64,000 nucleotides of DNA from an uncultured Candidatus Saccharibacteria bacterium (GCA_964554805.1 CAZKPX010000004.1:72439-136438), one strand, 5' to 3'. Shown: positions 5,336 to 35,430, numbered from the stretch's first letter. Notes: generated by a model from the letters alone, not told the origin. Made by a program: numbers and translations.

Positions 5336-6456
5336 GTCGACACCTCCCGATACAGCTTGGCATACTGATCGGCCGTCTGTTGCCAGTCGAACTTTTTGAT
5401 TTGCCGCAGACCGGCTTTGACCAGCTGCTGACGGGATTCCAGGTTACCGGCAAGCAGTGTCATTTGCTGAACCAGTTGTTGGTGATGACCGGTGTCGATA
5501 TACAAGGCCGCTGACCCGCCGATTTCAGGTAAGGCTGTGGTGTTGGTGGTTATGACAGGACAATGACAGGCCATGGCCTGGAGCATGGGCAGGCCAAAAC
5601 CTTCGTAGAGAGAGGGGAATAGTAGGGCTTGGGCTGCGGAAAGCAGCTCGATTAGCTCGGACTTGGCGACGAAGCCGACTAATTTTACTGATGATTCCAG
5701 TTGATGTTGCTGGATCAGTTTTTGAAATGATTGGCTGTCTTTGGCGTTTAAACCGGTAACGACCAGCTGATGCTGCCGGCCGGCGTCAGTATTGATAAAC
5801 TGCTTGAATGCCTCAATAGTGAAGGCTGTTTGCTTGCGGGGATCAATGGCGCCGAGATGGATGAAATAGGGTCGGTCAATACTATATTTCTGCAGAGTTT
5901 GATCCGGGGTGGTGGCTGGTTTAAATTCCTGGCCGACTCCTTCATAGATGACTTTGATCCGGTCAGCTGGAATAGAAAAACCTTCGGCGATATCCTGCTG
6001 GGAGAAGTTGGAGATGGTGGTGACCAGGTTGGCCCGCTTGATGATTAGGCTTGAAATGAGAGCATAATATTTGCGGCCCAGGCGCTGATACCAGGAGACG
6101 GCGGTTGGAATGCGCTGTTTGTCTGACAGGAACATGACGTCGTGGATGGTTAGAATTAGTTTTATTTTGGCAGGCAATAGTAGGGGGGCCGTATTGGTGG
6201 TGGCATGGAAAATATCAATCTTGTCACGTCGCAACAGATAGGGCAGAACGATTTGCTCACTAATGACATAGGAGGCAGGAACCAGTCTGATAACGGCTGA
6301 TGAAGGTAGTTTGACGGCTGACCAGTCGGCCTGTTTGTAGGTGTAGATAACATATTGATGCTGGTCGTCATCAGGCAGATGGGCTATCAGCTGATGGGCA
6401 AATTCGCCCAAACCCCTACCCTTGGCCACCAGGCGGGCATCAATACCTATTTTCAA
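5332..6456 (-). CDS. Glycosyltransferase family 4.
   Basis: EGFGLPMLQAMACHCPVITT motif. A 4-nt overlap with both neighbours. Confidence 0.75.
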   Translation of the reverse strand: MKIGIDARLVAKGRGLGEFAHQLIAHLPDDDQHQYVIYTYKQADWSAVKLPSSAVIRLVPASYVISEQIVLPYLLRRDKIDIFHATTNTAPLLLPAKIKLILTIHDVMFLSDKQRIPTAVSWYQRLGRKYYALISSLIIKRANLVTTISNFSQQDIAEGFSIPADRIKVIYEGVGQEFKPATTPDQTLQKYSIDRPYFIHLGAIDPRKQTAFTIEAFKQFINTDAGRQHQLVVTGLNAKDSQSFQKLIQQHQLESSVKLVGFVAKSELIELLSAAQALLFPSLYEGFGLPMLQAMACHCPVITTNTTALPEIGGSAALYIDTGHHQQLVQQMTLLAGNLESRQQLVKAGLRQIKKFDWQQTADQYAKLYREVST

Positions 6457-9135: not shown

Positions 9136-9160
9136 TCTCCTAGGAGCTGCCTGATAATGC

Positions 9161-9436
9161 ATGAAAAATATTGTCTGGGATGAGGCCAAGAATGGTTGGC
9201 TAAAAGAACATCGGGGCATTTCGTTTGAAGATGTGGCTACCAGAATTGTTCAGGGCGATGTGTTGGATGTTATTACCCACCCGAATCAAAAAAGATACTT
9301 TAACCAGAGGCAGTTCATCTTGTACTTGCATGATTATGTTTACGCAGTACCTTTTGTTGAAGATGACAATAACCTATTTCTAAAAACAATAATTCCAAGT
9401 CGCAAGGCTAAGAAGAAATATCTCAGCAAGGGCTAG
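9161..9436 (+). CDS. brnT: Type II toxin BrnT (DUF497 family ribonuclease toxin).
   Basis: N-terminal IVWDEAKNGWLKEHRGISFEDV and C-terminal IIPSRKAKKKY match the BrnT family pattern (I.WDE.K...L...RGisFe..; ..iiSaRkA.k.E...Y). Confidence 0.7.
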   Translation: MKNIVWDEAKNGWLKEHRGISFEDVATRIVQGDVLDVITHPNQKRYFNQRQFILYLHDYVYAVPFVEDDNNLFLKTIIPSRKAKKKYLSKG

Positions 9437-9439
9437 TCT

Positions 9440-9766
9440 ATGAAAGATCCACAATTAACTCCCTATGAACAAGATTTACTTGATAGCTTTGAAAAAGGAG
9501 AGTGGGTATCTGTTCCTGATCTAGAAGAAGCCAAGAAGCGCTACGCGGCCTACGCAGCTTATGCTATGCAGAAGCGAGCCAAGACTAAGCCTATCAGTAT
9601 TCGTCTGTCCGAAGATGTGCTGGATGGATTGAAAGAGCAGGCTGGCCGGGAAGGTATCCCCTATCAGACGCTGATTAGCTCTATCTTGCATAAATACCTG
9701 GTCAAGGAAAGACAGGCTGAGTATGGTCAGGTGAACGACAAAGAAGAATCAGCGGACAAGGGATAG
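9440..9766 (+). CDS. brnA: BrnA antitoxin (ribbon-helix-helix / CopG-like).
   Basis: The IRLSEDVLDGLKEQAGREGIPYQTLISSILHKYL segment matches the BrnA_antitoxin signature. The gene starts 3 nt after brnT. Confidence 0.7.
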   Translation: MKDPQLTPYEQDLLDSFEKGEWVSVPDLEEAKKRYAAYAAYAMQKRAKTKPISIRLSEDVLDGLKEQAGREGIPYQTLISSILHKYLVKERQAEYGQVNDKEESADKG

Positions 9767-9881
9767 ACTGACCCGCTAAAGATCGGTCAGCAAGACTCTT
9801 TATCACTTACTCGCTTAGACTGATAATTCTTAGCACTCTCTGAGTATATTATTTACTCTTTGTCTGAGATACCTGCTACTG

Positions 9882-17307: not shown

Positions 17308-18930
17308 TTACATGCCTGCGGCAGGCTGATGGTACAAGCGGTCAGTAATATCTACTAGATCGAATAGCTTTTTAGAATCTTTGAAGCCATAGACCTTTGT
17401 CTCCAGCGGCGACATGGGGATGTTGAAATATTGATCAAAAACGGTGCGGAAAGCATTAATGGATGACATATCATCTGATAGCCGAGCATAGTCCTGGTCG
17501 GGGAAATAGTAGGCGGTTAAGACGTTGGCCCGCTCGTGCAAGGCTTGATCTGAAGTGCTGACCCAGTTGTTACTCTTTTTGACTTGACTGTACTTTGAAG
17601 AACTGGCTCCCTCATCGGCTACCATCACTATAATGGCATTACCTTGGGTAGAGGCTTTTATGTACGAGATGATTTCCTGGGCTGTCCTGGTGGCACATTT
17701 AAGATGTTCGAGATACCCTTGATCATTACTCAGTCTGTCCAACTGAGTCGGGTCATATTGACAATCCTGGTTGAATATATAAGGCCCATGTGGCAATAGG
17801 ATGTGAGCCATAACGAACTTAGGGCTGGGCATATCTACGACAGTTTTGTAGGTGCTTAATTGATACTGGGTGTAGACCTTGTGGGCAATAAGGCTGTCGG
17901 CGGTGTTATCAGCAGTAAACAGGCTGACGATCGGCATGGCCATGGTGGCGGAAATTATTTCACGGACATAAGGATCCTTCAACCAGAACATTGGCGCATA
18001 CTGAAAAACCCGGTTATTACCTCCCTCTTGAGCTGTGGGCCAATACCAAGATGCTAATGAATAGTTTTTGTATCCTAGATCATGAAAGGTCTGTTGAGTA
18101 GCATTGTTTTTAAAAAGCGGAATAATATCAGACCCCTCAGTCGGCTGGCGGCCTTGCCAATCCTGGCTGTCATGATACTGCATATTAAGAGTGGCAGACA
18201 TGGAAAATGAGGTTTTAAGATAGTTCGACAGCGCATTTTCCGCTACAAAAAAGTTTTCGCTCCTTAACCAACTATAAAACTGACTGTTGTCGTATCCGTA
18301 GCTATCGAGCAATACATTGTTGGCAGCATAGCGATCAAACACCAGATAGTAGACATCTGGTTTGGATGCGGTGTAGTCGGGCAGATCGGTGGAGGCTAAG
18401 ACATTGCTGGCTGATGACAGGCTGGTATCTGCAACCTGCTCAACTCCCAGTTTGCCGCGCTCCGCCAAGCCTACCTGCCAAACTACCATGACTACTAATA
18501 TAATTGATACAACATTCATTATGGGTGTCAATATTCGACCAGAGTGAGAGGATCTTTTCCAATACCAGAATCCAGCCATCAGCAAAAGACTAACTACAGG
18601 AAAGACTGCTTTATCCGGGCCAATTATAAAATTGCCAACTCTGGCAAGCTCGTCAGGCAATGGATTTACCAAGGACCCATAGAGAGAAAACACAATAACA
18701 AATAAGCCCAGAGCTGCGGCAGCTTTGGGCCAGGACTTGTATATAAAATTGGAGATAAAGAAGAGCAGGCAGGTGACGATTATAACAAGTAGTAGTGGAA
18801 TATATACTACATCGAGGGTCAATTCCTGGACGTTGTGACTGTAGATAAAAATGACGGGATAAATGGCCAGCAATAACGGGTAAAATGGTTCACTACCGAC
18901 TTTGCTGAAAAATTGCCTAGCTTTATTCAT
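17308..18930 (-). CDS. Membrane-anchored alkaline-phosphatase-superfamily protein (LtaS/sulfatase/phosphotransferase-like), paralog 1.
   Basis: Five N-terminal TM helices, then a roughly 400-aa ectodomain. Conserved blocks are shared with the next gene (YYLVFDRYA, LLPHGPY, AYYFPDQ-Y, N-FRTVFDQYFN). Confidence 0.4.
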   Translation of the reverse strand: MNKARQFFSKVGSEPFYPLLLAIYPVIFIYSHNVQELTLDVVYIPLLLVIIVTCLLFFISNFIYKSWPKAAAALGLFVIVFSLYGSLVNPLPDELARVGNFIIGPDKAVFPVVSLLLMAGFWYWKRSSHSGRILTPIMNVVSIILVVMVVWQVGLAERGKLGVEQVADTSLSSASNVLASTDLPDYTASKPDVYYLVFDRYAANNVLLDSYGYDNSQFYSWLRSENFFVAENALSNYLKTSFSMSATLNMQYHDSQDWQGRQPTEGSDIIPLFKNNATQQTFHDLGYKNYSLASWYWPTAQEGGNNRVFQYAPMFWLKDPYVREIISATMAMPIVSLFTADNTADSLIAHKVYTQYQLSTYKTVVDMPSPKFVMAHILLPHGPYIFNQDCQYDPTQLDRLSNDQGYLEHLKCATRTAQEIISYIKASTQGNAIIVMVADEGASSSKYSQVKKSNNWVSTSDQALHERANVLTAYYFPDQDYARLSDDMSSINAFRTVFDQYFNIPMSPLETKVYGFKDSKKLFDLVDITDRLYHQPAAGM

Positions 18931-19001: not shown

Positions 19002-20600
19002 CTATGGCGCGAGATAAAAATCGAACAAATGATCCTTGTCGGGCCAGAGGTAGGTTTGGTCTTCTAGGTTGGGGAGGTCGTAGTTGAAGTATTGGCGGAA
19101 GACGGTGCGGAAGGAGTTGACGGGGGTGATGGTGGGGTAGAGTTGGCTGTAGTTCTGGTCGGGGAAGTAGTAGGCGTTGAGGATTTGAGTGCGTTCTTGG
19201 ATAGCAGTGTCGGAGGCACCATCAAATTTCCAGTGGTGGCCGGTGGGGCTGATCATGGCTTCGGGGCCCTCATCGCTCTGGAGAATGATAATGGGTGGTT
19301 GGGTTGAGTTGGCTAGAATAGTGTCGATGGCCTGCATGGCCCTACTGTTGGCGCATTTGACCTGTTCGATGTAATTGGCCGGGCTGATTTCCCAGCGCTG
19401 CAGAGGTTGCTGGAGTAGATTGCAATCAGCATCATAGACGTAGGGGTCATGAGGCATAAGCAGGTGGGTCATGACAAATTTTTGCCCTGTTTGCTTGGTT
19501 GCTTGCAGGAGTTGCTGCTGGCCGAAGTCTGCCCAGCGATAATGCTGATCAAAGCCTAGCCCGAGTGGGTAATTAGTGGTTAATCCAGCTAATTCTGGAT
19601 AGTAGGATGTCTCGAGGAGTTGCCTGGTGAAGCTACTGGTGGTTATAAAATCTGACCAGTTGGCCATGATGTTGGTGTCGGCTACCTCGATGTTGCTGGC
19701 TAGCTCGTAATAATTGCCAACGTGGAAATAGGTGTAGCCAAGCGACTTGAAGATTTGGCCGGCCTTGTGATTTCTCATTAAGACTGAAGCGGTATCGGTG
19801 TCAGAGACACCGTCGGCCTGAGTATCGACCAGGCTTTGCAGATAATCTAGATTGAGGGTTGAGGAAAGTGAAAACAGGGTTTTGGGGTAGTTGGTGTTGG
19901 AATCAGTGGCTAGATAGAACTGCTTTTGAGCCAGATAATCGATTAGCTGTTGGTTATCATAGTCATAGTATTCAGCTTGAGTTTTGGGTGAGGCGTAACG
20001 ATCGAGGACGATGTAATAGATATCGGGTTGACTTGCAGCGACAAGCGATGAGTGATGAGCGACAGGGAGGACTTGGGTGGCCTGAAGTGCTTGCTGTCTG
20101 GCCTCGGAGCTGGCAAATAAGCCTGGAACAATTTGGATGAGAGGGCCGACAAGAAGAATAATGCCGACGAGGCTAATTAGTTTAATAAAACGTATCGATG
20201 GCCAGGTAGTCTGCCGACCGGCAGATTTCATAGCCATGACGACCAGCACTATTGCCACAAGTATATACAATAGCCAGACAGCGACTTTGGCTTGATCGGC
20301 TTCCAGCCACTGACCAAAAATCACAGTCAGGCTATTGAAGCTAAAGAATGTGACAACCAGCGTCAGGCTGATTAGAGCGGCAAAGGTTGGTTTTTTGGTT
20401 AAGAATGCCAAACCTATTTGGATAACTACGACGACAAAGGTTGTAAAAAGGAGCGGTTCAATCACCTGGTTTATAGTGGTGCCGTGAATATTGGTGGCGA
20501 ACAAGCTGAGAATTGCGAACCAGCTGAAGAGAATGGCTGGGGCTAGGCTTAGGAGCGACGAGCGACGAGCGACGAGCGACGAGGTGAATCGGTTGAGCAT
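19002..20600 (-). CDS. Membrane-anchored alkaline-phosphatase-superfamily protein, paralog 2. It carries a heptamer SSR in codons 7-17.
   Basis: Same architecture as 17308-18930 (IYYIVLDRYA, LLMPHDPY, AYYFPDQNY, NSFRTVFRQYFN). The N-terminal SSLVARRSSLL is encoded by (GAGCGAC)x4. Confidence 0.4.
   Translation of the reverse strand: MLNRFTSSLVARRSSLLSLAPAILFSWFAILSLFATNIHGTTINQVIEPLLFTTFVVVVIQIGLAFLTKKPTFAALISLTLVVTFFSFNSLTVIFGQWLEADQAKVAVWLLYILVAIVLVVMAMKSAGRQTTWPSIRFIKLISLVGIILLVGPLIQIVPGLFASSEARQQALQATQVLPVAHHSSLVAASQPDIYYIVLDRYASPKTQAEYYDYDNQQLIDYLAQKQFYLATDSNTNYPKTLFSLSSTLNLDYLQSLVDTQADGVSDTDTASVLMRNHKAGQIFKSLGYTYFHVGNYYELASNIEVADTNIMANWSDFITTSSFTRQLLETSYYPELAGLTTNYPLGLGFDQHYRWADFGQQQLLQATKQTGQKFVMTHLLMPHDPYVYDADCNLLQQPLQRWEISPANYIEQVKCANSRAMQAIDTILANSTQPPIIILQSDEGPEAMISPTGHHWKFDGASDTAIQERTQILNAYYFPDQNYSQLYPTITPVNSFRTVFRQYFNYDLPNLEDQTYLWPDKDHLFDFYLAP
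20553..20583 (+). repeat. Heptamer microsatellite (GAGCGAC)x4 inside the N-terminal coding region of the 19002-20600 gene.
   Basis: gagcgacgagcgacgagcgacgagcgacgag. A 7-nt unit in an ORF means a gain or loss of one unit shifts the frame. Confidence 0.8.
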
Positions 20601-20603
20601 AAC

Positions 20604-22046
20604 TTACTTCTTTTCTAGTAGGTATAGGATCCGGTGGCTATCTTTGATTGGGGTGGCTTTGGTAATTTTGAAATATTGACCAAAAGCAGCCTCAAATCCC
20701 TCCTTGGTGTAGTCAGTGAAAATATCCTGCCGGGTAGCTAACAGAATCTGGACTTGGGAATCCTGTTTGGGGATGAATTCAACGATGGCTCCCTTATGCG
20801 ACAACTGGTGGAACAACAGGGCAATCTTGGCTAAGGGGATGTTGAGAGGGATAGCCAGGTGATGGACGACCGCCAGTCCCATAATGGCATCGGCTTGAAT
20901 ACGATCCAGAATAGCCCGACGCTCGGTATTGTGCCAGCCAATGCCTGGGCTGGGGTTGGCAATGTCTGACACCAAAGGCAGGATACTGCCTTTGGTGGAG
21001 CGACTAGCGACGGGCGACGAGCGACGAGCTTCTGATTTGAGGTATTGGTAGAGGCTGTCGACTGCTAAGGGGTCGATGTCGAGGGCGATGGTTTGGATGC
21101 CTTGATCTGCCGCAACCATGCTAAATAAGCCGGTATTGGCACCGATGTCTGTGGCTGATTTTGCTTTGAGTTGCTTGAGATAGTCCCCCACTAATTGCTG
21201 CTTGTGTTGGAGGGCTTGGTCGACATAGTTGTTGTTATTGATGTAATAGCTGGCCCACTCGGTGTTTTGGCCTTTGGCTTTGAGCTTTTTGACTGCTGAC
21301 TCTAGACTATCCAACATGCCCAGCAATGATTGCAGACTGACTTGACCAACAGATGTAGATTGAGAAGCGGCTTGGAGATTTTTTGAGGCATCGGAAGCAT
21401 GACTGACTTGGTTCTTACCGTGAAGATGGATATGGATTAGCAGGCCGGGTCGGAGACGAGAAGCTGGGGGCAGGAGACGGGAGGCTAGGTCTAGAGGGAT
21501 GCCGTCAATATTCGTCTGGAGTAATTGCTGCAGGCGGAGATCGGTATGGGCCATTAAGGCTAGCGGGGCCAGGAAATGTTGGCAGAATTGTTTGTAGGCA
21601 ACCCAGGGCTTTGGCTGGTAGGCTTCAAAAGACAAGGTGTCAATTAAAACTGGCTGATTGGCCACAAATTGGATATTGTAAGCCGTTGCATCTTTGAGAC
21701 TCATGCCATGTTTGAGGGCTGTTTTTTGAAGATGAAGGGTTAGGAGCGCCGCATCTTGCAGCTGGCTAAATGACCATTCATACGGATAGGATATGACCGG
21801 AATATGCTCAGGTTTAATAATTTTATAGGCCTGCTGAAAGGGGTGGTTTGTTAACTTGACCTCTTGATGAGCTACCATAGCTTGCTGGTCAACAAGAGTC
21901 TGATATAGGCCGGAGCTGTGTAGCAGGTCATAGTTTTTCTGGTATGAATCAGAAACTGCCCGATAGATGGTGTCGTCTTGGTAAAAGACAGTGCCGCTGG
22001 GATCGCGGAAGGATGAAGATTCAAGCTTGGTAGTGTCTTTAGGCAT
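20604..22046 (-). CDS. Two-domain protein with a C-terminal class I SAM-dependent methyltransferase. It carries a GCGACGR heptamer tract in the coding sequence.
   Basis: DIGANTGLFSMVAADQG..ALDIDPLAVD is a SAM-binding fold. EARRSSPVASRSTKG is encoded by the gcgactagcgacgggcgacgagcgacgag tract at 21000-21028. Confidence 0.5.
   Translation of the reverse strand: MPKDTTKLESSSFRDPSGTVFYQDDTIYRAVSDSYQKNYDLLHSSGLYQTLVDQQAMVAHQEVKLTNHPFQQAYKIIKPEHIPVISYPYEWSFSQLQDAALLTLHLQKTALKHGMSLKDATAYNIQFVANQPVLIDTLSFEAYQPKPWVAYKQFCQHFLAPLALMAHTDLRLQQLLQTNIDGIPLDLASRLLPPASRLRPGLLIHIHLHGKNQVSHASDASKNLQAASQSTSVGQVSLQSLLGMLDSLESAVKKLKAKGQNTEWASYYINNNNYVDQALQHKQQLVGDYLKQLKAKSATDIGANTGLFSMVAADQGIQTIALDIDPLAVDSLYQYLKSEARRSSPVASRSTKGSILPLVSDIANPSPGIGWHNTERRAILDRIQADAIMGLAVVHHLAIPLNIPLAKIALLFHQLSHKGAIVEFIPKQDSQVQILLATRQDIFTDYTKEGFEAAFGQYFKITKATPIKDSHRILYLLEKK
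21000..21028 (+). repeat. Heptamer microsatellite (GCGACKR)x4 inside the methyltransferase-domain gene.
   Basis: gcgactagcgacgggcgacgagcgacgag. Confidence 0.7.
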
Positions 22047-24798: not shown

Positions 24799-25830
24799 TT
24801 AAAGACTGAAGATATCATCATCCAGTGATGGTTGGTCGGGTAATTGGGCGAAAGGTTGTTGGAGTTTTTCCCACCACTGCGGGTTATCTTCGTACCATTT
24901 GACAGCGCTGGCAATACCTTTATGAAAATCTACAGCCGGCTGCCAACCCAAGCGATTGAGCTTGGATGTATCCACTGCCTGTTGTCCAGGCATGCCTGAT
25001 TCTATAACTGATAGTAGTTCTCGCGGCCTATCCAGGAAATGCAGCAGCAAGTCTACAACTTCTATCTCTGACCGAACATGTCCGCTACCAAGATTATAGG
25101 TCTGCGCATCAACATCGCCAGCTCGGGCATGGATGAGGGTATCGATGGCAGTGCAAAAATCATCGACATGCAGCCAATCGTGCTCTACTCTGCCTGCCAG
25201 TTCCAATTCTACCGGTTGTCGCTGGATTGCTTTGGTGATCCAGGAGGCCATTAGCTGATTGGGGTATTGGTGAGGTCCATAGATAGACGATGGACGAACC
25301 ATGGTGATGGGTAAGTTGGCTGAGGTGGTGTAAGAGTAAGCCAGACGTTCGGCGCCTATTTTGGAAGCAGCTTGCGGAGAGGCTGGCTGAAGCTCGTCGC
25401 CTTCGTAGACCGGGCGTTTTTGCAAGCCTTGGGTTGAGGCGGGACCATAGCCTGCTGCCGTAGAGATATGCAAGAATCGAGAAACGCGATAGGCTTTGGC
25501 AGCTTCACATAAGACATAGGTGCCGTAGAGGTCTGTCCTAATAAAGCGCGAGGGGTCTACTTCTTCAGGATTCGGGTATGGTTCTGAGGCTAGGTGAATG
25601 ACAGTATCTATACCTTGACTCATCAGGGCATCCACTTCAACTTCATTGCAGATATCACCTTGGACAAAGTGGTAGGTGGGGAGATGAGCCAGGTCGGTTA
25701 AATTTTCGAGGTTGCCGGAATAGGTCAGTCGATCCAGATTAATGATTGTATAACCTGGATATTTCTTCAGCAGGTAGCGGATAAGATTGGAGCCAATAAA
25801 ACCAGCGCCACCGGTGACTAGGATTTTCAT
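24799..25830 (-). CDS. rfbB: dTDP-glucose 4,6-dehydratase.
   Basis: The MKILVTGGAGFIGSN Rossmann motif, DRLTYSGNLENL (as in RmlB DKLTYAGNLESL), and a catalytic YxxxK region (YSYTTSA..). Confidence 0.7.
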   Translation of the reverse strand: MKILVTGGAGFIGSNLIRYLLKKYPGYTIINLDRLTYSGNLENLTDLAHLPTYHFVQGDICNEVEVDALMSQGIDTVIHLASEPYPNPEEVDPSRFIRTDLYGTYVLCEAAKAYRVSRFLHISTAAGYGPASTQGLQKRPVYEGDELQPASPQAASKIGAERLAYSYTTSANLPITMVRPSSIYGPHQYPNQLMASWITKAIQRQPVELELAGRVEHDWLHVDDFCTAIDTLIHARAGDVDAQTYNLGSGHVRSEIEVVDLLLHFLDRPRELLSVIESGMPGQQAVDTSKLNRLGWQPAVDFHKGIASAVKWYEDNPQWWEKLQQPFAQLPDQPSLDDDIFSL

Positions 25831-25963: not shown

Positions 25964-25984
25964 GGCGACGGGCGACGGGCGACA
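25964..25984 (+). repeat. GGCGACG heptamer x3 in the leader of the rfbB operon.
   Basis: ggcgacgggcgacgggcgaca. Confidence 0.7.
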
Positions 25985-26050: not shown

Positions 26051-26156
26051 CGAGACAGGAGACGCGGGACAGGAGGATTGTCAGTAATCTTTGATTTTTG
26101 ATTTTAATTTTTGCCTTTTGCCCTTTGCCTTTTTCCTTTTGCCCTTTGCCCTTTGC
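26051..26156 (+). repeat. Solo right arm of the MITE-like element (copy b): GGAGACAGGA tract plus TIR.
   Basis: cgagacaggagacgcgggacaggaggattgtcagtaatctttgatttttgattttaatttttgccttttgccctttgcc.. The last about 50 nt are read as the C-terminus of the Mur-ligase ORF (..[17 protein letters not shown]). Confidence 0.6.
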
Positions 26157-27411
26157 CGAGCGCTTTCTCTACAGCTGTTTGGTCTGACCAGGGGATTTCT
26201 TGGCCTTGGATGGCTAGGCTTTGTTCGTGGCCTTTGCCGGTAATTAATACTACGTCTCCCTTTTGAGCCATGGCGATGGCTTGGTTTATGGCTTGTTGTC
26301 GATCGTCGAGGCGCTGCCACTGTTTGCCCTGTACTCTACCCTGTTGAGTAAGACCATCGATGATCATTGATTGTATTGTATCCAAAGACTCAAAGCGGGG
26401 GTCCTCCATGGTGAGGATGGAGAAATCTGCCCATTGGCCGGACAGCTGACCGAAGGTTGAGCGCTTGGATTGATCACGTTGAGCTGCTGAGCCAAAAACA
26501 TGAATTAATGCGCCGTTGCCTGTGACTAATTTTTTAGCTTGAGGCAGTACTTGAGCTAAGGATTGTGGCGTATGGGCGAAGTCAATAATGATGGTGTATG
26601 GTGTAGTTTGGACTACCTGCCAGCGACCATCGACCGCTTTGACCGCTGCCAAGCCTTGTCTAATGGCTGACTCAGAAACTTCGAGGCATACCGCGATAGC
26701 GGTTGCTGCTAAGGCATTTGAAACATTGTATTCACCCGGTAAGAAGACTTGCAAGTCTTGGATCGACTTGGTTTTGCTTAATTTGGGAGAAATTTTACTA
26801 TTGAAAGTCGTTGATTGATCGGTTTGCTGCGTAATCGTGCCGAGTAAATCGGCTGGCTGAGACTGGCTAATAGTCAGGAGCGAGGGGTGGGTGGATATAA
26901 GCTGGGTCAATGGTGGACTGTCTATATTTATGATTGTGTGCTGCGACTGCTTGATAATCATGGCTTTGGCTTGAAGGTATTTATCCATAGTGCGGTGATA
27001 ATCGAGATGTTCCGGGCTCAGGTTGGTAATTAGTCCAACCCTAAAATTAAGACCAAAGGTTCGATATTGGTCCAGGCCATGTGAGGTAGTCTCAATAACG
27101 ACATGGCTGACACCTGCCTGTTTCATCTGATGCAACATAGCATATATTTCGGTTGGACCGGGTGTTGAGGTATGAAGGCCAGTTTGGAGATGTTGGCCGT
27201 TGATCTGCGCACCTAGGGTTGAGATGTGGCCGACTGTATGACCAGCCTGCTCCAATATGCTGGAGACAAGATGGGTGGTGGTGGTTTTGCCATCGGTGCC
27301 GGTAATACCAATCAAAATTAAATGTTTGTGTGGCTGGCGGAAGCGAATCATTGCTGCTGCGCTTAAGAGTATATTGATCAGTCGACGGGCAAGAATTCTG
27401 AGATGAATCAT
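26104..27411 (-). CDS. Mur-ligase-family protein (MurT/MurE-like central and C-terminal domains).
   Basis: P-loop GITGTDGKTTT and a Mur ligase middle-domain block, TSHGLDQYRTFGLNFRVGLITNLSPEHLDYHRTMDKYLQAKAMI. The N-terminus MIHLRILARRL resembles the MurT N-terminus. There is no Zn-ribbon. The C-terminal about 16 aa derive from the repeat. Confidence 0.55.
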   Translation of the reverse strand: MIHLRILARRLINILLSAAAMIRFRQPHKHLILIGITGTDGKTTTTHLVSSILEQAGHTVGHISTLGAQINGQHLQTGLHTSTPGPTEIYAMLHQMKQAGVSHVVIETTSHGLDQYRTFGLNFRVGLITNLSPEHLDYHRTMDKYLQAKAMIIKQSQHTIINIDSPPLTQLISTHPSLLTISQSQPADLLGTITQQTDQSTTFNSKISPKLSKTKSIQDLQVFLPGEYNVSNALAATAIAVCLEVSESAIRQGLAAVKAVDGRWQVVQTTPYTIIIDFAHTPQSLAQVLPQAKKLVTGNGALIHVFGSAAQRDQSKRSTFGQLSGQWADFSILTMEDPRFESLDTIQSMIIDGLTQQGRVQGKQWQRLDDRQQAINQAIAMAQKGDVVLITGKGHEQSLAIQGQEIPWSDQTAVEKALGKGQRAKGKRQRAKGKN

Positions 27412-32420: not shown

Positions 32421-32745
32421 GGGCGGCAATCTAGTATGGGTTTATTATTCACACACAAGAATGCAATCGACCAAAAGCCATTGTTTTTGTATGTCATTTT
32501 TTCTTGCCAAATAAACACGACTTACTAGCTAATGAATGCCGGGATGAGTTTTTACATGATCTACTAGATCTTCTTGCCTAGGCTAGGAGACCAGTATTTA
32601 GCAAGAAACAAATGAATACAGGGTTATATAAAATGCAGGAGACAAGAGACAGGAGGCAGGAGACGCGGGACGCGACGGCGGGGATTGTCAGTAATCTTTG
32701 ATTTTTGACTTTAATTTTTACCTTTTGCCTTTTGATTTTTGCCTT
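32421..32745 (+). repeat. MITE-like element copy e (hairpin core at about 32470-32640, GACAAGA/GGCAGGA heptamer tract, right TIR arm).
   Basis: ccaaaagccattgtttttgtatgtcattttttcttgccaaataaaca ... ctaggagaccagtatttagcaagaaacaaatgaataca ... gacaagagacaggaggcaggagacgcgggacgcg ... ttgtcagtaatctttgatttttgactttaatttttaccttttgccttttgatttttgcc. The right arm supplies the cmk C-terminal tail. Confidence 0.65.
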
Positions 32746-33512: not shown

Positions 33513-35180
33513 CTATCTTTTATCCCCACCAGCTTGGCTGGCGGCGGCGATAAAGTCGCGGAATAGCGGATGGGCTTGGGTGGGCCGGGACAGAAACTCG
33601 GGATGGAATTGGACTCCGATAAAGAAGGGGTGATTGGGTATTTCGACCATTTCAACAAGCTGACCATCTGGCGAGGTGCCGCTAATTATCATGCCGGCTT
33701 CTTCTAATGGCTGTCTGTAGACATTATTAAACTCATAGCGATGGCGATGGCGCTCATGAATAGCACTTTGTTGGTACGCTTGATACGCCAACGTGCTGGG
33801 CTTAACTTTGCAGGCCCAATCTCCCAAACGCATACTACCACCGTACTCCTGCTTGAGCAGCTTCTTTTGTTGGTCGGGCATGATGTGAACAATGGGATGC
33901 TTGGTTTTTGGGTCTACCTCGGTTGAATTGGCATTTTTGAGACCTGCTACATTTCTGGCAAACTCGATGGTGGCCATCTGCATGCCGTAGCATAACCCAA
34001 GATATGGCTTATTGTGCTGACGAGCGAATTTGACTGCAGCTATCATGCCTTCAATGCCCCGAGAACCGAAGCCTCCCGGCACGCAAATACCATCCATTTC
34101 GGCCAGTTTGTCAGTCCCTTCTTGTTCAATCTTTTCGGCATCCACCCAAAATAACTGGGGATCTAGGCCATGATGCCAGGCAGCATGCTTCAGGGCTTCG
34201 ATAACCGATACATAAACATCTTCCAGAACGAAATCTCCGGTAGCAAAGTATTTGCCGATTAGCCCGATTTTGACTGGCTTTTTGGCTTTGGCGATCGTTT
34301 TGTTGAGGGCAACCCAATCATCTAAGTTCTTGTCTTTGACCGGTAAGCCCATCTTTTCCAGTAACCGCTCGGCGACGTGCTGTTTGTCTAGAATTAGCGG
34401 CACCTGATAAATGCTATCGACATCGGGATTAGAAATGACATCTTCTGCCTGAACATTGGTGAAAAGTGAAATCTTCTCACGGCGGGTTTTATCGATACTG
34501 GCCGTTGATCGACCAACGATCATATCTGGCTGAATACCCATTGAATTGAGGGCGCGAACCGACTGCTGAATTGGCTTGGATTTCATTTCTCCCAAGGTAC
34601 CAGGAATGGGCAAATAGCCAAGATGAAGCTGGAAGACATCATGCGGATTCTTGAGCTTCATAATGCGCGAAGCTTCTAAAAATAACACATTCTCATAATC
34701 CCCTACTGTGCCACCCAGCTCGATGATAACGACATCGGCTTTATGACGACGGCCGGCCGCTTTGACTCTGTCGATAATTTCATTAGTAATGTGAGGGATG
34801 GGCTGGACCGTTATGCCTTGATATTCAAAGGCTCGCTCTTTTTTGAGAACAGTGTCGTAGAGCATGCCATTGGTGAGATAGTTGGCTCTGTCGAGGTCCA
34901 TGCCAAGGAAACGTTCGTAATTACCAAGATCTTGATCTGTCTCTAAGCCGTCTTGGGTAACAAAGACTTCGCCGTGCTCTTGGGGTCGCAAGGTGCCAGC
35001 GTCCATGTTGAAGTACATATCTATCTTCATGGGCGAGACTGTATAGCCCGAGGCTTTTAGTAATAAGCCGATTGAAGCCGAGGTTATTCCTTTGCCAATT
35101 CCTGAGATAACACCACCGGTAACGAATAAATACTTTGTTGGCATAGTTCCCCCTTTATAGTGACGAGCGACAAGCGACAA
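33513..35180 (-). CDS. pyrG: CTP synthase.
   Basis: KYLFVTGGVISGIGKGI at the N-terminus and a glutamine amidotransferase domain (GLCYGMQ, HPEF). 555 aa. Confidence 0.95.
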   Translation of the reverse strand: MSLVARHYKGGTMPTKYLFVTGGVISGIGKGITSASIGLLLKASGYTVSPMKIDMYFNMDAGTLRPQEHGEVFVTQDGLETDQDLGNYERFLGMDLDRANYLTNGMLYDTVLKKERAFEYQGITVQPIPHITNEIIDRVKAAGRRHKADVVIIELGGTVGDYENVLFLEASRIMKLKNPHDVFQLHLGYLPIPGTLGEMKSKPIQQSVRALNSMGIQPDMIVGRSTASIDKTRREKISLFTNVQAEDVISNPDVDSIYQVPLILDKQHVAERLLEKMGLPVKDKNLDDWVALNKTIAKAKKPVKIGLIGKYFATGDFVLEDVYVSVIEALKHAAWHHGLDPQLFWVDAEKIEQEGTDKLAEMDGICVPGGFGSRGIEGMIAAVKFARQHNKPYLGLCYGMQMATIEFARNVAGLKNANSTEVDPKTKHPIVHIMPDQQKKLLKQEYGGSMRLGDWACKVKPSTLAYQAYQQSAIHERHRHRYEFNNVYRQPLEEAGMIISGTSPDGQLVEMVEIPNHPFFIGVQFHPEFLSRPTQAHPLFRDFIAAASQAGGDKR

Positions 35181-35187
35181 GAACGAG
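35161..35187 (+). repeat. GCGACAA-type heptamer repeat at the pyrG start.
   Basis: tgacgagcgacaagcgacaagaacgagc. Confidence 0.6.
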
Positions 35188-35332
35188 CATATGCAATGAT
35201 AAGCACGAAATGATAGAGGCCCGTTCAGGCCCGAAAGCTAGATTATGTTTTTTTGAGGGGATTAAAGAGAAGTTAATAGAGTGCCCTTCTAAGAATACTG
35301 GCTTAACGGCTGCGCCGTCAAGCGCGACGGGC

Positions 35333-35430
35333 GACAAGCGACAGGCGACCAGCATTTGTTCAGTATTCAATTTGAACTGAATTTCCTCGTCGCACGTCGC
35401 TTGTCGCTTGTCACTATCGCTAAGCGATAA
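35333..35430. repeat. Inverted arrays of GCGACRR heptamers in the tsaC-pyrG intergenic leader, a large palindrome.
   Basis: gcgcgacgggcgacaagcgacaggcgacc .. ttcagtattcaatttgaactgaa .. gtcgcacgtcgcttgtcgcttgtc, followed by the palindrome ctatcgctaagcgatag. Confidence 0.7.

What the first reader, a model, noticed from the sequence alone, without database searches (positions are those of the whole stretch)
20553..21028. Heptanucleotide microsatellites inside the first 20 codons of two adjacent glycan-modification genes: candidate slipped-strand phase variation.
(GAGCGAC)x4 at 20553-20583 encodes SSLVARRSSLL at residues 7-17 of the second alkaline-phosphatase-superfamily paralog. GCGACTA-GCGACGG-GCGACGA-GCGACGA at 21000-21028 lies in the methyltransferase-domain gene immediately upstream.

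A 7-nt unit cannot change copy number without shifting the frame. This is the hallmark of contingency loci that switch surface-structure genes on and off. The same heptamer recurs in the leaders of four operons (see the next finding), so it is a genome-wide repeat that has been recruited into coding sequence here.
Basis: partly seen in the sequence, partly recalled or inferred. Interest (0 to 1): 0.8.

Follow-up and report, generated by a model that had tools for sequence, protein, structure and literature searches.

The report
Short heptamer repeats inside two genes
Two short 7-base tandem repeats sit inside neighbouring cell-surface sugar genes of an uncultured Patescibacteria-type bacterium. 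They look like in-frame spill-over from a genome-wide burst of such repeats rather than a proven on/off switch, although one could still act as a weak switch.

Summary
Tract 1 is real: a perfect (GAGCGAC)x4.4 at 20553-20583, read as (TCGTCGC)4 in codons 7-17 of a 532-aa sulfatase-like membrane protein. Tract 2 (20998-21029) is real but degenerate (84% matches). It lies at codons 340-351 of a 480-aa methyltransferase-like gene, not in its first 20 codons.

Both tracts are net in-frame additions at poorly conserved sites. Tract 1 adds 7 aa to the N-terminal tail compared with the closest homolog. Tract 2 adds 6-11 aa to an indel-prone loop compared with about 80 homologs.

The window is packed with heptamer arrays (0.44 per kb against 0.06 per kb in comparison loci), nearly all intergenic. 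Arrays also supply the C-terminal tails of Cmk and a Mur-ligase ORF. A closer relative (PrfB 85% identical) has few arrays in the matching region, so the burst is lineage-specific.

Tract 1 has the geometry of a NeuO-type frameshift switch: the gene is ON at 1, 4 or 7 copies. But four copies is below the usual cutoff of five, and no length polymorphism could be tested. The same unit does vary in copy number in metagenomes, mostly at 9 or more copies.

Verdict: tolerated spill-over from genome-wide repeats. Phase variation is possible for tract 1 (about 0.25) and unlikely for tract 2.

The parts
20553..20583 (-). Tract 1: a perfect heptamer array, (TCGTCGC)4 plus flanking partial units on the coding strand. 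It encodes SSLVARRSSLL, residues 7-17 of the 532-aa protein.
   Evidence: TRF gives 4.4 copies at 100% matches. The frame is open only at 1, 4 or 7 copies.
19002..20600 (-). Gene for a 532-aa multi-pass membrane protein of a sulfatase-like (alkaline-phosphatase superfamily) family. Its non-conserved N-terminal tail carries tract 1.
   Evidence: 816 homologs were found, many with PF00884. 22 of 35 aligned members hit PF00884. The invariant Asn is at position 37 here and at position 30 in the closest homolog P0002; a 1-copy version of the tract gives N30.
20998..21029 (-). Tract 2: a degenerate heptamer array (GCTCGTC GCTCGTC GCCCGTC GCTAGTC GCTCCAC on the coding strand). It encodes ARRSSPVASRS, about residues 340-351 of the 480-aa protein.
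   Evidence: TRF gives 4.6 copies at 84% matches. It coincides with an 11-aa insertion relative to most of about 80 homologs and a 6-aa insertion relative to the two closest, which are about 70% identical.
20604..22046 (-). Gene for a 480-aa protein with a C-terminal class-I-methyltransferase-like region (DIGANTG ... ALDID). Tract 2 lies in the loop just after the second motif.
   Evidence: Only sub-threshold methyltransferase hits. The family is conserved across many phyla. The Logan contig L001 is identical over this gene.
25964..25983 (-). Array of the same GCGAC-core family, (CGTCGCC)x2.9 on the sense strand. It lies 134 nt upstream of the epimerase gene (24799..25830), apparently the first gene of this run of minus-strand genes.
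17308..18930 (-). Downstream 540-aa paralog of the 532-aa gene. It has no heptamer tract and serves as an internal control for a normal N-terminal tail.
   Evidence: The precomputed PF00884 hit belongs to the 541-aa gene at the matching position in the syntenic locus L002; the window's own 540-aa protein has no Pfam hit.

Best explanation
Both tracts are coding-region members of a lineage-specific, genome-wide proliferation of tandem heptamer arrays. These are slippage-born simple sequence repeats with two main unit families, GCGAC-RR and GGCAAA-R. In this Patescibacteria-type genome the arrays arise and grow mostly between genes. Where they overlap genes, only versions whose net length is a multiple of three, at structurally tolerant positions, have survived.

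Tract 1 is a young, still perfect expansion of three extra units (21 nt, 7 aa). It sits in the non-conserved cytoplasmic N-tail ahead of the first transmembrane helix of a sulfatase-like surface-polymer enzyme. Tract 2 is an older array that is decaying by point mutation. It lengthened a surface loop after motif II of a methyltransferase-like protein by 6-11 aa.

Neither is a dedicated switch. Tract 1 keeps a latent, probably low-rate ability to knock the gene out by gaining or losing one unit.

Shown: the anatomy, the in-frame insertions, the genome-wide distribution, the lineage specificity, and the length-dependent instability of this unit elsewhere. Inferred: slippage as the mechanism of origin, neutrality, and a low switching rate at 4 copies.
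For: 1. Heptamer arrays dominate the window. 28 of 61 TRF rows have period 7, or 0.44 per kb, against 0.06 per kb in 1.28 Mb of homologous loci from other genomes.
2. About 20 of 27 merged arrays are intergenic or lie at ORF edges, although about 92% of the window is ORF.
3. Arrays flank housekeeping genes. (TTTGCCC)8 lies upstream of prfB. A GCGAC-family array lies upstream of a consensus TTGACA-17-TATAAT promoter of greA. Another lies just before the pyrG ribosome-binding site.
4. Wherever arrays enter ORFs they sit at tolerant sites with in-frame net length. The Cmk C-tail is 7 aa longer than in two relatives. The Mur-ligase ORF ends in an array-coded tail...[17 protein letters not shown]. 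Tract 1 adds 7 aa (N37 against N30). Tract 2 adds 6-11 aa in the most indel-prone segment of an otherwise conserved region.
5. In the two closest relatives the tract-2 site reads CCAGTCGTTAGCCCTCG, a plausible proto-repeat.
6. A syntenic closer relative (L207, PrfB 85% identical) has only two period-7 arrays in 11 kb. It has none of the GCGAC or TTTGCCC arrays at the matching intergenic sites. The burst is therefore recent.
7. The same unit forms 5-43-copy arrays in more than 120 metagenome contigs. Among 13 sets of contigs with matching flanks, 7 differ by whole 7-nt units. Every set reaching 9 or more copies varies, and 6 of the 7 sets with 7.7 copies or fewer are invariant. Instability is real but depends on length, and 4 copies is at the low end.
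8. From the literature: heptamer repeats are over-represented in many bacteria, mostly intergenic, often as inverted pairs (PMC4692102). Enrichment of repeats at protein termini is often explained by structural tolerance alone (PMC3315296).
Against: - Tract 1 is the only perfect array of 4 or more copies in the window. It sits in exactly the kind of place (5' coding region, surface-glycan gene) where selection for switching is known to put such repeats.
- Two Logan contigs from two runs end and start exactly at tract 1. This would also be expected if length variants coexist.
- The 50%-identical ortholog in L002 also carries a degenerate period-7 array in its N-tail. It is the only period-7 array in 19 kb, hinting at recurrent or retained repeats at this position.
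- Neutrality and a low switching rate are inferred, not measured.
Confidence: 0.6

Rival explanations
1. Tract 1 is a genuine contingency locus. Slipped-strand mispairing adds or removes 7-nt units and switches the sulfatase-like surface-polymer enzyme ON (1, 4 or 7 copies) or OFF (all other numbers), as in E. coli K1 neuO. This would vary the cell surface of a host-attached or phage-exposed Patescibacteria cell. Tract 2 would at most be a decayed former switch.
For: - The unit length is not a multiple of 3, the array is perfect, and it sits at codons 7-17. Adding or removing one or two units gives stops after 14-56 codons.
- The gene lies in a polysaccharide cluster with a flippase, glycosyltransferases and epimerases.
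- The present array equals 1 + 3 units, as expected if only ON alleles are seen in a consensus.
- The same unit is length-polymorphic in nature.
- Contigs break at the tract in two runs.
- The genome clearly generates heptamer arrays rapidly.
- NeuO is a precedent: 3-53 copies seen in genomes (PMC13001214).
Against: - There are only 4 copies. The published cutoff is 5 or more (PMC6321876), and the known heptamer switches cited here usually carry 6-53 copies (PMC2651432, PMC13001214).
- Orthologous sets with 7.7 copies or fewer are mostly invariant.
- All assemblies show 4 copies.
- The contig breaks are explained by pure-repeat 31-mers from other loci or organisms, because this unit is widespread. 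Logan contigs of this organism also break at non-repeat sites.
- Arrays occur equally at housekeeping genes.
Confidence: 0.25
2. The arrays, tract 1 included, are functional cis-elements recognised at the DNA or RNA level. They could be binding arrays for a regulator of GCGAC-marked transcription units, or a device that keeps the translation-initiation region unstructured. Coding capacity would then be incidental.
For: - GCGAC-core arrays in the same sense orientation occur upstream of the epimerase gene that heads this gene run, before pyrG and upstream of the greA promoter.
- Inverted GCGAC arrays between yrdC and pyrG fold into a hairpin of -53.5 kcal/mol, z = -5.6.
- The mRNA around the 532-aa start, including tract 1, is less structured than 195 of 200 shuffles, z = +2.1.
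Against: - No promoter-like site follows tract 1 or tract 2.
- Units differ between loci in 2 of 7 positions.
- A closer relative lacks the arrays at the orthologous sites, which argues against a conserved regulatory role.
- Tract 2 is mid-gene.
- No candidate binding protein was identified.
Confidence: 0.08
3. The tracts are assembly or sequencing artefacts, such as a collapsed or chimeric repeat.
For: The window appears to come from a metagenome-assembled genome, and short-read assemblers break at tract 1.
Against: - Three assemblies (the NCBI contig and Logan contigs from two runs) agree base for base across 18.8 kb. This includes all of tract 2 and 29-30 nt of tract 1 from each side.
- Both ORFs are intact and full length relative to homologs.
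Confidence: 0.02

Closest known systems
neuO of E. coli K1 (CUS-3 prophage O-acetyltransferase): a heptanucleotide (AAGACTC)n tract in the 5' coding region
   Same: Both have a 7-nt unit inside the first codons of a surface-glycan-modifying gene. The full-length protein is made only in one of three copy-number classes. In-frame copies add a heptapeptide repeat to the N-terminus (PMC13001214).
   Different: neuO carries 3-53 copies, commonly about 20, with measured mixed populations (93% / 2% / 5%). Here there are 4 copies and no polymorphism data. The host is an uncultured Patescibacteria-type bacterium, and the protein is a membrane sulfatase-like enzyme rather than an acetyltransferase.
Genome-wide heptamer repeats: cyanobacterial STRR (Calothrix/Nostoc) and the GGGAATC / GGGGAYT repeats of Xanthomonas and Nostoc
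   Same: Many tandem heptamer arrays per genome, a few unit families, a strong intergenic bias, frequent inverted pairs, and length and sequence variation between close relatives (PMC4692102).
   Different: The phylum is different: the named relatives are Patescibacteria MAGs, and the cyanobacterial HIP1 octamer is absent. The units are different and not G-quadruplex-forming. Here arrays also reach into coding ends and one internal loop.
Haemophilus influenzae heptanucleotide repeats (hmw1A/hmw2A promoters; AACAACC in TonB-dependent receptor genes)
   Same: Heptamer repeats upstream of, or inside, surface-protein genes whose copy number changes expression or frame (PMC2651432).
   Different: Those tracts have 6-38 copies and are documented as variable between strains. 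They are confined to contingency genes rather than spread over housekeeping intergenic regions.
C-terminal sequence switching by simple sequence repeats (Helicobacter canadensis)
   Same: Repeats at the 3' ends of ORFs alter the C-terminal tail rather than abolishing the protein, as in the array-coded tails of Cmk and the Mur-ligase ORF here. The comparison rests on the title and abstract of PMC2823697.
   Different: Those are homopolymeric tracts. Variation of the tails here is not shown.

Membership tests
Repeat-mediated translational phase-variable (contingency) gene, NeuO type | Tandem repeat whose unit is not a multiple of 3, located inside the coding sequence | tested here: met
   Both tracts have a 7-nt unit inside intact ORFs.
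Repeat-mediated translational phase-variable (contingency) gene, NeuO type | Repeat near the 5' end, so that a frameshift abolishes essentially the whole protein | tested here: inconclusive
   Met for tract 1: codons 7-17, and off-frame alleles stop after 14-56 codons. Not met for tract 2: it starts at codon 340 of 480.
Repeat-mediated translational phase-variable (contingency) gene, NeuO type | Uninterrupted tract long enough for high-rate slippage (at least 5 units for units of 4 nt or more in PhasomeIt; known heptamer switches usually 6-53) | tested here: not met
   Tract 1 has 4.4 perfect copies. Tract 2 has at most 2 consecutive perfect units at 84% matches. The cutoff is from PMC6321876.
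Repeat-mediated translational phase-variable (contingency) gene, NeuO type | Copy-number polymorphism within a population or between strains, including OFF alleles | tested here: inconclusive
   The NCBI contig and Logan contigs from SRR16798008/9 all carry 4 copies, but they are probably the same population. No closer relative than 50% identity exists in 5.8 billion proteins, the GTDB genomes or the JGI contigs.
Repeat-mediated translational phase-variable (contingency) gene, NeuO type | Gene product acts on a surface structure | tested here: met
   By context and family only. The cluster holds a Wzx-like flippase, a GT2 glycosyltransferase, epimerases and an FkbM methyltransferase. The protein belongs to a sulfatase-like membrane family. 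No biochemical evidence.
Genome-wide heptamer repeat families (STRR-like / heptamer over-representation) | Many tandem heptamer arrays per genome, far above other periods | tested here: met
   28 of 61 TRF rows have period 7, with 10 more at periods 14, 21 or 28. The density is 0.44 per kb against 0.06 per kb in other loci.
Genome-wide heptamer repeat families (STRR-like / heptamer over-representation) | Predominantly intergenic, often as inverted pairs | tested here: met
   About 20 of 27 arrays lie outside or at the edge of ORFs, with about 92% ORF coverage. One inverted pair folds with z = -5.6. Further inverted pairs lie at 39837/40180, 29006/29346 and 31692/31910.
Genome-wide heptamer repeat families (STRR-like / heptamer over-representation) | The tracts in question share their unit with other arrays of the genome | tested here: met
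   GCGAC-core arrays occur at 6 further places in the window: 18 matches against 0.11 expected.
Cyanobacterial STRR in the strict sense | Cyanobacterial genome with STRR units (CCCCAGT, TTGGTCA or CAACAGT, recalled from Mazel et al. 1990) | tested here: not met
   There are no HIP1 sites. Housekeeping PrfB is closest to Patescibacteria MAGs. The units differ.
Alkaline-phosphatase superfamily / Sulfatase (PF00884), for the 532-aa protein | Significant match to the PF00884 profile | tested here: inconclusive
   The protein itself has no Pfam or NCBIfam hit. 22 of 35 aligned homologs hit PF00884, best E-value 3e-11. A profile search against PDB sequences gave no hit.
Class I SAM-dependent methyltransferase, for the 480-aa protein | Profile match above threshold, with motif I (GxGxG-like) and an acidic residue at the end of beta-2 | tested here: inconclusive
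   There are only sub-threshold hits over residues 285-336 (Methyltransf_12 at 17 bits against a cutoff of 30; NCBIfam and PDB hits are weak). The motifs DIGANTG and ALDID are visible and conserved in about 80 homologs.

The most novel reading that the evidence does not exclude
In an ultra-small Patescibacteria (CPR) bacterium, a hyperactive heptamer-slippage process could serve as a genome-wide mutational engine. Tract 1 would then be a working NeuO-like ON/OFF switch for a surface-polymer-modifying enzyme. To my knowledge this would be the first repeat-based contingency locus described in this radiation. The promoter-proximal and C-terminal arrays would act as tunable expression and tail-switching elements.
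Probability: 0.2. Interest if true: 0.65.

Novelty: new member of a known kind. Interest (0 to 1): 0.3.

Why it matters
If tract 1 really switches, it would show that host-dependent, genome-reduced Patescibacteria vary their surface by the same repeat-based bet-hedging used by pathogens. That is relevant to host attachment and phage escape in organisms that cannot be cultured alone.

As the evidence stands, the more solid and modest point is different. This lineage has undergone a recent burst of heptamer arrays that reshapes intergenic regions and adds short peptides to protein termini and loops. That is a clean natural example of how repeats are born, tolerated and decay. It is also a caution that a frame-breaking repeat in a surface gene is not by itself a contingency locus.

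Tried and rejected
- **Close strains.** I looked for close strains to compare copy number. An exact-protein look-up found only Logan contigs from SRR16798008/9. A homolog search found nothing closer than 50% identity. The GTDB genome scan found nothing closer than 63% for the neighbouring gene. The JGI metagenome scan found no relative. Strain comparison is therefore impossible with these data.
- **Contig breaks.** I considered the Logan contig breaks at tract 1 as evidence of length heterogeneity. I set this aside as not decisive for two reasons. The tract is exactly k = 31 long and pure (GAGCGAC)n 31-mers are common in metagenomes. Contigs of this organism also break at non-repeat sites.
- **Cyanobacterial origin.** I considered a cyanobacterial STRR origin. 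It is rejected: there are no HIP1 sites and the housekeeping genes are of Patescibacteria type.
- **Alternative start codon.** I checked whether a downstream start would place tract 1 in a leader. There is no in-frame start before the conserved TM1 motif.
- **Internal promoter or terminator.** None is predicted near either tract.
- **mRNA structure.** There is no structure around the start codon; the region is unusually unstructured.
- **Recombination between the tracts.** The two tracts are direct repeats 445 nt apart, and an in-register, in-frame fusion is possible on paper. It would delete the conserved C-terminal third of the methyltransferase-like protein, and there is no evidence for it.
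- **Run accessions.** A literature search for the two SRR accessions found nothing. One malformed literature query failed.
- **Solved structures.** No relative of the 532-aa protein was found in PDB sequences, either by single sequence or by profile.
- **ORF context of metagenome arrays.** I classified the (GAGCGAC)n arrays in the metagenome contigs by the open frames around them. I judged this unreliable because most of those contigs are GC-rich and have long spurious open frames.
Full report
**Observation**

TRF finds a perfect (GAGCGAC)x4.4 array at 20553-20583 and an imperfect one (84% matches, 4.6 copies) at 20998-21029 (sequence). All genes in this region run on the minus strand.

Tract 1 reads ACC TCG TCG CTC GTC GCT CGT CGC TCG TCG CTC CTA.

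Tract 2 lies in the 480-aa ORF 20604..22046, but at codons 340-351, which is 1017 nt from the start. The title's 'first 20 codons of two genes' is therefore wrong for the second gene.

The repeats are far above chance. The 14-mer GAGCGACGAGCGAC with up to 2 mismatches occurs 18 times, against 0.11 expected.

ATG 20600 is the only possible start for the 532-aa gene. It follows the upstream stop by 3 nt, and no other in-frame start precedes the conserved first transmembrane motif. Tract 1 is therefore translated.

**The genes**

The 532-aa protein and its 540-aa downstream paralog belong to a large family of roughly 530-aa multi-pass membrane proteins (816 hits). The window protein itself has no Pfam or NCBIfam hit, but 22 of 35 aligned members hit PF00884 Sulfatase.

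The 480-aa protein shows only sub-threshold class-I methyltransferase matches over residues 285-336.

The neighbours are an epimerase, a GT2 glycosyltransferase, a Wzx-like flippase and an FkbM methyltransferase. 'Glycan-modification genes' is thus a reasonable inference from context.

**The organism**

The source genome is not among the GTDB representatives. The nearest genome hit for the 480-aa gene is a MAG labelled Candidatus Saccharibacteria (63% identity).

PrfB from the window is 74% identical to a protein on a contig of the same length as that MAG contig. Named relatives at 54-59% identity are Levybacteria, Daviesbacteria and 'Patescibacteria group'.

There are no HIP1 sites. I take the organism to be a Patescibacteria (CPR) bacterium; this is an inference.

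**Both tracts are in-frame insertions at tolerant sites**

Tract 2:
- In about 80 homologs, the segment between DIDPxAVE and ILPLxxDxxNPSP is 11 residues shorter than in the window protein.
- In the two closest relatives (L002 and L004, about 70% identical) it is 6 residues shorter.
- The extra residues are the heptamer tract.
- In those two relatives the site reads CCAGTCGTTAGCCCTCG, against CCCGTCGCTAGTCGCTC in the window. This is a plausible proto-repeat from which the array grew.

Tract 1:
- The family's invariant Asn is at position 37 here and at position 30 in the closest homolog, P0002.
- A one-copy version of the tract gives exactly N30.
- The tract therefore equals three extra units, or 21 nt and 7 aa, in a tail that is not conserved in length or sequence across the family.

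**Genome-wide context**

Period 7 accounts for 28 of 61 TRF rows in the window, with 10 more rows at periods 14, 21 or 28. That is 0.44 arrays per kb, against 0.06 per kb in 1.28 Mb of homologous loci from other genomes.

There are two dominant unit families, GGCAAA-R (TTTGCC-Y on the other strand) and GCGAC-RR. About 20 of 27 merged arrays are intergenic or lie at ORF edges, although ORFs cover about 92% of the window.

Arrays sit next to housekeeping genes:
- upstream of prfB, as (TTTGCCC)8;
- upstream of a consensus TTGACA-17-TATAAT promoter of greA;
- immediately before the pyrG ribosome-binding site, and as an inverted pair between yrdC and pyrG that folds to -53.5 kcal/mol, z = -5.6.

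Arrays also supply coding sequence at protein ends:
- The Cmk ORF ends in an array-coded ...RQGKNQKAKGKN tail, 7 residues longer than in two relatives.
- The Mur-ligase ORF ends in ...[17 protein letters not shown].

In this window, arrays therefore enter ORFs at one N-tail, one loop and two C-tails, all structurally tolerant places. This matches the published finding that repeat enrichment at protein termini often follows from structural tolerance alone (PMC3315296).

**The burst is recent**

A syntenic Logan contig from a closer relative (L207, PrfB 85% identical) has only two period-7 arrays in 11 kb. It has none of the GCGAC or TTTGCCC arrays at the orthologous intergenic sites.

The more distant syntenic relative L002 has a single period-7 array in 19 kb. 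Other Patescibacteria loci (L005, L018) and an Armatimonadota locus (L050) carry heptamer arrays with entirely different units.

**Could tract 1 still be a switch?**

Geometrically it could. Only 1, 4 or 7 copies keep the frame, and every other number gives a stop after 14-56 codons. This is the logic of neuO in E. coli K1, where a 5' heptanucleotide tract gives full-length protein only when the copy number is divisible by three (PMC13001214).

The unit itself is slippage-prone.

I grouped those contigs by matching flanks into 13 orthologous sets:
- 7 sets differ by whole 7-nt units. For example, L097, L126 and L179 carry 10.7, 9.7 and 13.7 copies with near-identical flanks.
- Every set that reaches 9 or more copies varies.
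- 6 of the 7 sets with 7.7 copies or fewer are invariant.
- Caveat: the scan required at least 5 copies, so shorter alleles could not be seen.

Four copies is below the cutoff of 5 used for units of 4 nt or more (PMC6321876). It is also below the usual 6-53 copies of the known heptamer switches cited here (PMC2651432, PMC13001214).

**Direct evidence on polymorphism**

There is none either way. The NCBI contig and Logan contigs from two runs are identical over 18.8 kb, including tract 2 and both edges of tract 1.

L001 ends at 20554 and L085 starts at 20582, so both break at the tract. This implies a de Bruijn branch, meaning that 31-mers of pure repeat exist in the reads. Because the tract is exactly 31 nt long and this unit is widespread, other loci or organisms can explain the branch. 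Contigs of this organism also break at ordinary sequence (L086).

No closer strain exists in any searchable collection.

**Other checks**

- There is no promoter- or terminator-like site near either tract.
- The mRNA around the start codon and tract 1 is unusually unstructured, z = +2.1.
- The L002 ortholog has a degenerate period-7 array (CCTCCCG x3.7) in its own, longer N-tail. My rough estimate of the chance of this, from the background array density, is about 0.005. It could mean that this tail is a recurrent landing site for arrays. I leave it unexplained.

**Verdict**

The best explanation (confidence about 0.6) is that both tracts are tolerated, in-frame spill-over from a lineage-specific, genome-wide heptamer-array proliferation. 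Tract 1 is young and perfect; tract 2 is old and decaying.

A true NeuO-like switch at tract 1 remains possible (about 0.25) and is directly testable on the existing reads. For tract 2 the phase-variation reading is not supported.

In kind, both readings fall within known phenomena: heptamer repeat over-representation and heptanucleotide phase variation. Here they appear in a new host lineage.

Noticed in passing
window 35310-35425 (minus strand): Inverted pair of GCGAC-family heptamer arrays between the yrdC/Sua5 stop and pyrG. It folds into a long hairpin (-53.5 kcal/mol, z = -5.6, 0 of 200 shuffles as stable). A third array (35162-35181) abuts the pyrG ribosome-binding site.
   Followed up: partly
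window 39837-39883 and 40179-40237; also 331/860, 29006/29346, 31692/31910: Arrays of the GGCAAA-R / TTTGCC-Y family occur as inverted pairs flanking intergenic regions. In each case the TTTGCC-Y version lies on the sense strand upstream of the downstream gene, for example (TTTGCCC)8 upstream of prfB. They may be promoter-proximal elements. Their function is unknown.
   Followed up: partly
window 63626-63709 (minus strand): A GCGAC-family array (63681-63709) lies about 30 nt upstream of a perfect TTGACA-17-TATAAT promoter (63654-63626) ahead of greA. The long ORF 63076..63732 is an artefactual 5' extension through the array.
   Followed up: partly
window 32711-32745 and 26104-26157: Heptamer arrays run into the 3' ends of the cmk and Mur-ligase ORFs and encode Lys-rich C-terminal tails (...RQGKNQKAKGKN and ...[17 protein letters not shown]). 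The Cmk tail is 7 aa longer than in two relatives.
   Followed up: yes
window 43528-44056, within ORF 41438..47506 (2022 aa): A perfect 255-nt (85-codon) tandem duplication, 100% identical, lies inside a giant ORF. The same ORF also carries 18-nt and 6-nt repeats at 42493-42533 and 42815-42864. L208 has a 2027-aa ORF at the matching position next to prfB.
   Followed up: no
L097 969-1038, L126 450-512, L179 (reverse complement 6003-6093): The same (GTCGCTC)n locus, with near-identical flanks, appears in three contigs of the metagenome collection with 10.7, 9.7 and 13.7 copies. In total, 7 of 13 orthologous sets of (GAGCGAC)n arrays vary by whole units.
   Followed up: partly
L005 9329-9644: In the Candidatus Saccharibacteria-labelled MAG, the 400-nt region upstream of the orthologous small-ORF / methyltransferase-like / sulfatase-like operon is filled with four different perfect arrays: ATGTAGG x3.7, GGACTGCT x5, CGAAATA x7.4 and TCCAAAG x5.6. 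These are long enough to be plausible expression-tuning repeats.
   Followed up: no
L002 7451-7476: The 50%-identical ortholog of the 532-aa gene carries a degenerate period-7 array (CCTCCCG x3.7) in its own N-terminal tail. It is the only period-7 array in 19 kb of that contig.
   Followed up: partly
L050 4039-4142, 7123-7248, 8248-8367: A Chthonomonadaceae (Armatimonadota) MAG locus has three inverted pairs of perfect 4.4-copy heptamer arrays, 50-70 nt apart, each pair with its own unit. The architecture matches the window but occurs in an unrelated phylum.
   Followed up: no
L085 10817-11422 (roughly window 9160-9770): A BrnT/BrnA-like toxin-antitoxin pair is embedded in the glycosyltransferase cluster.
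   Followed up: no
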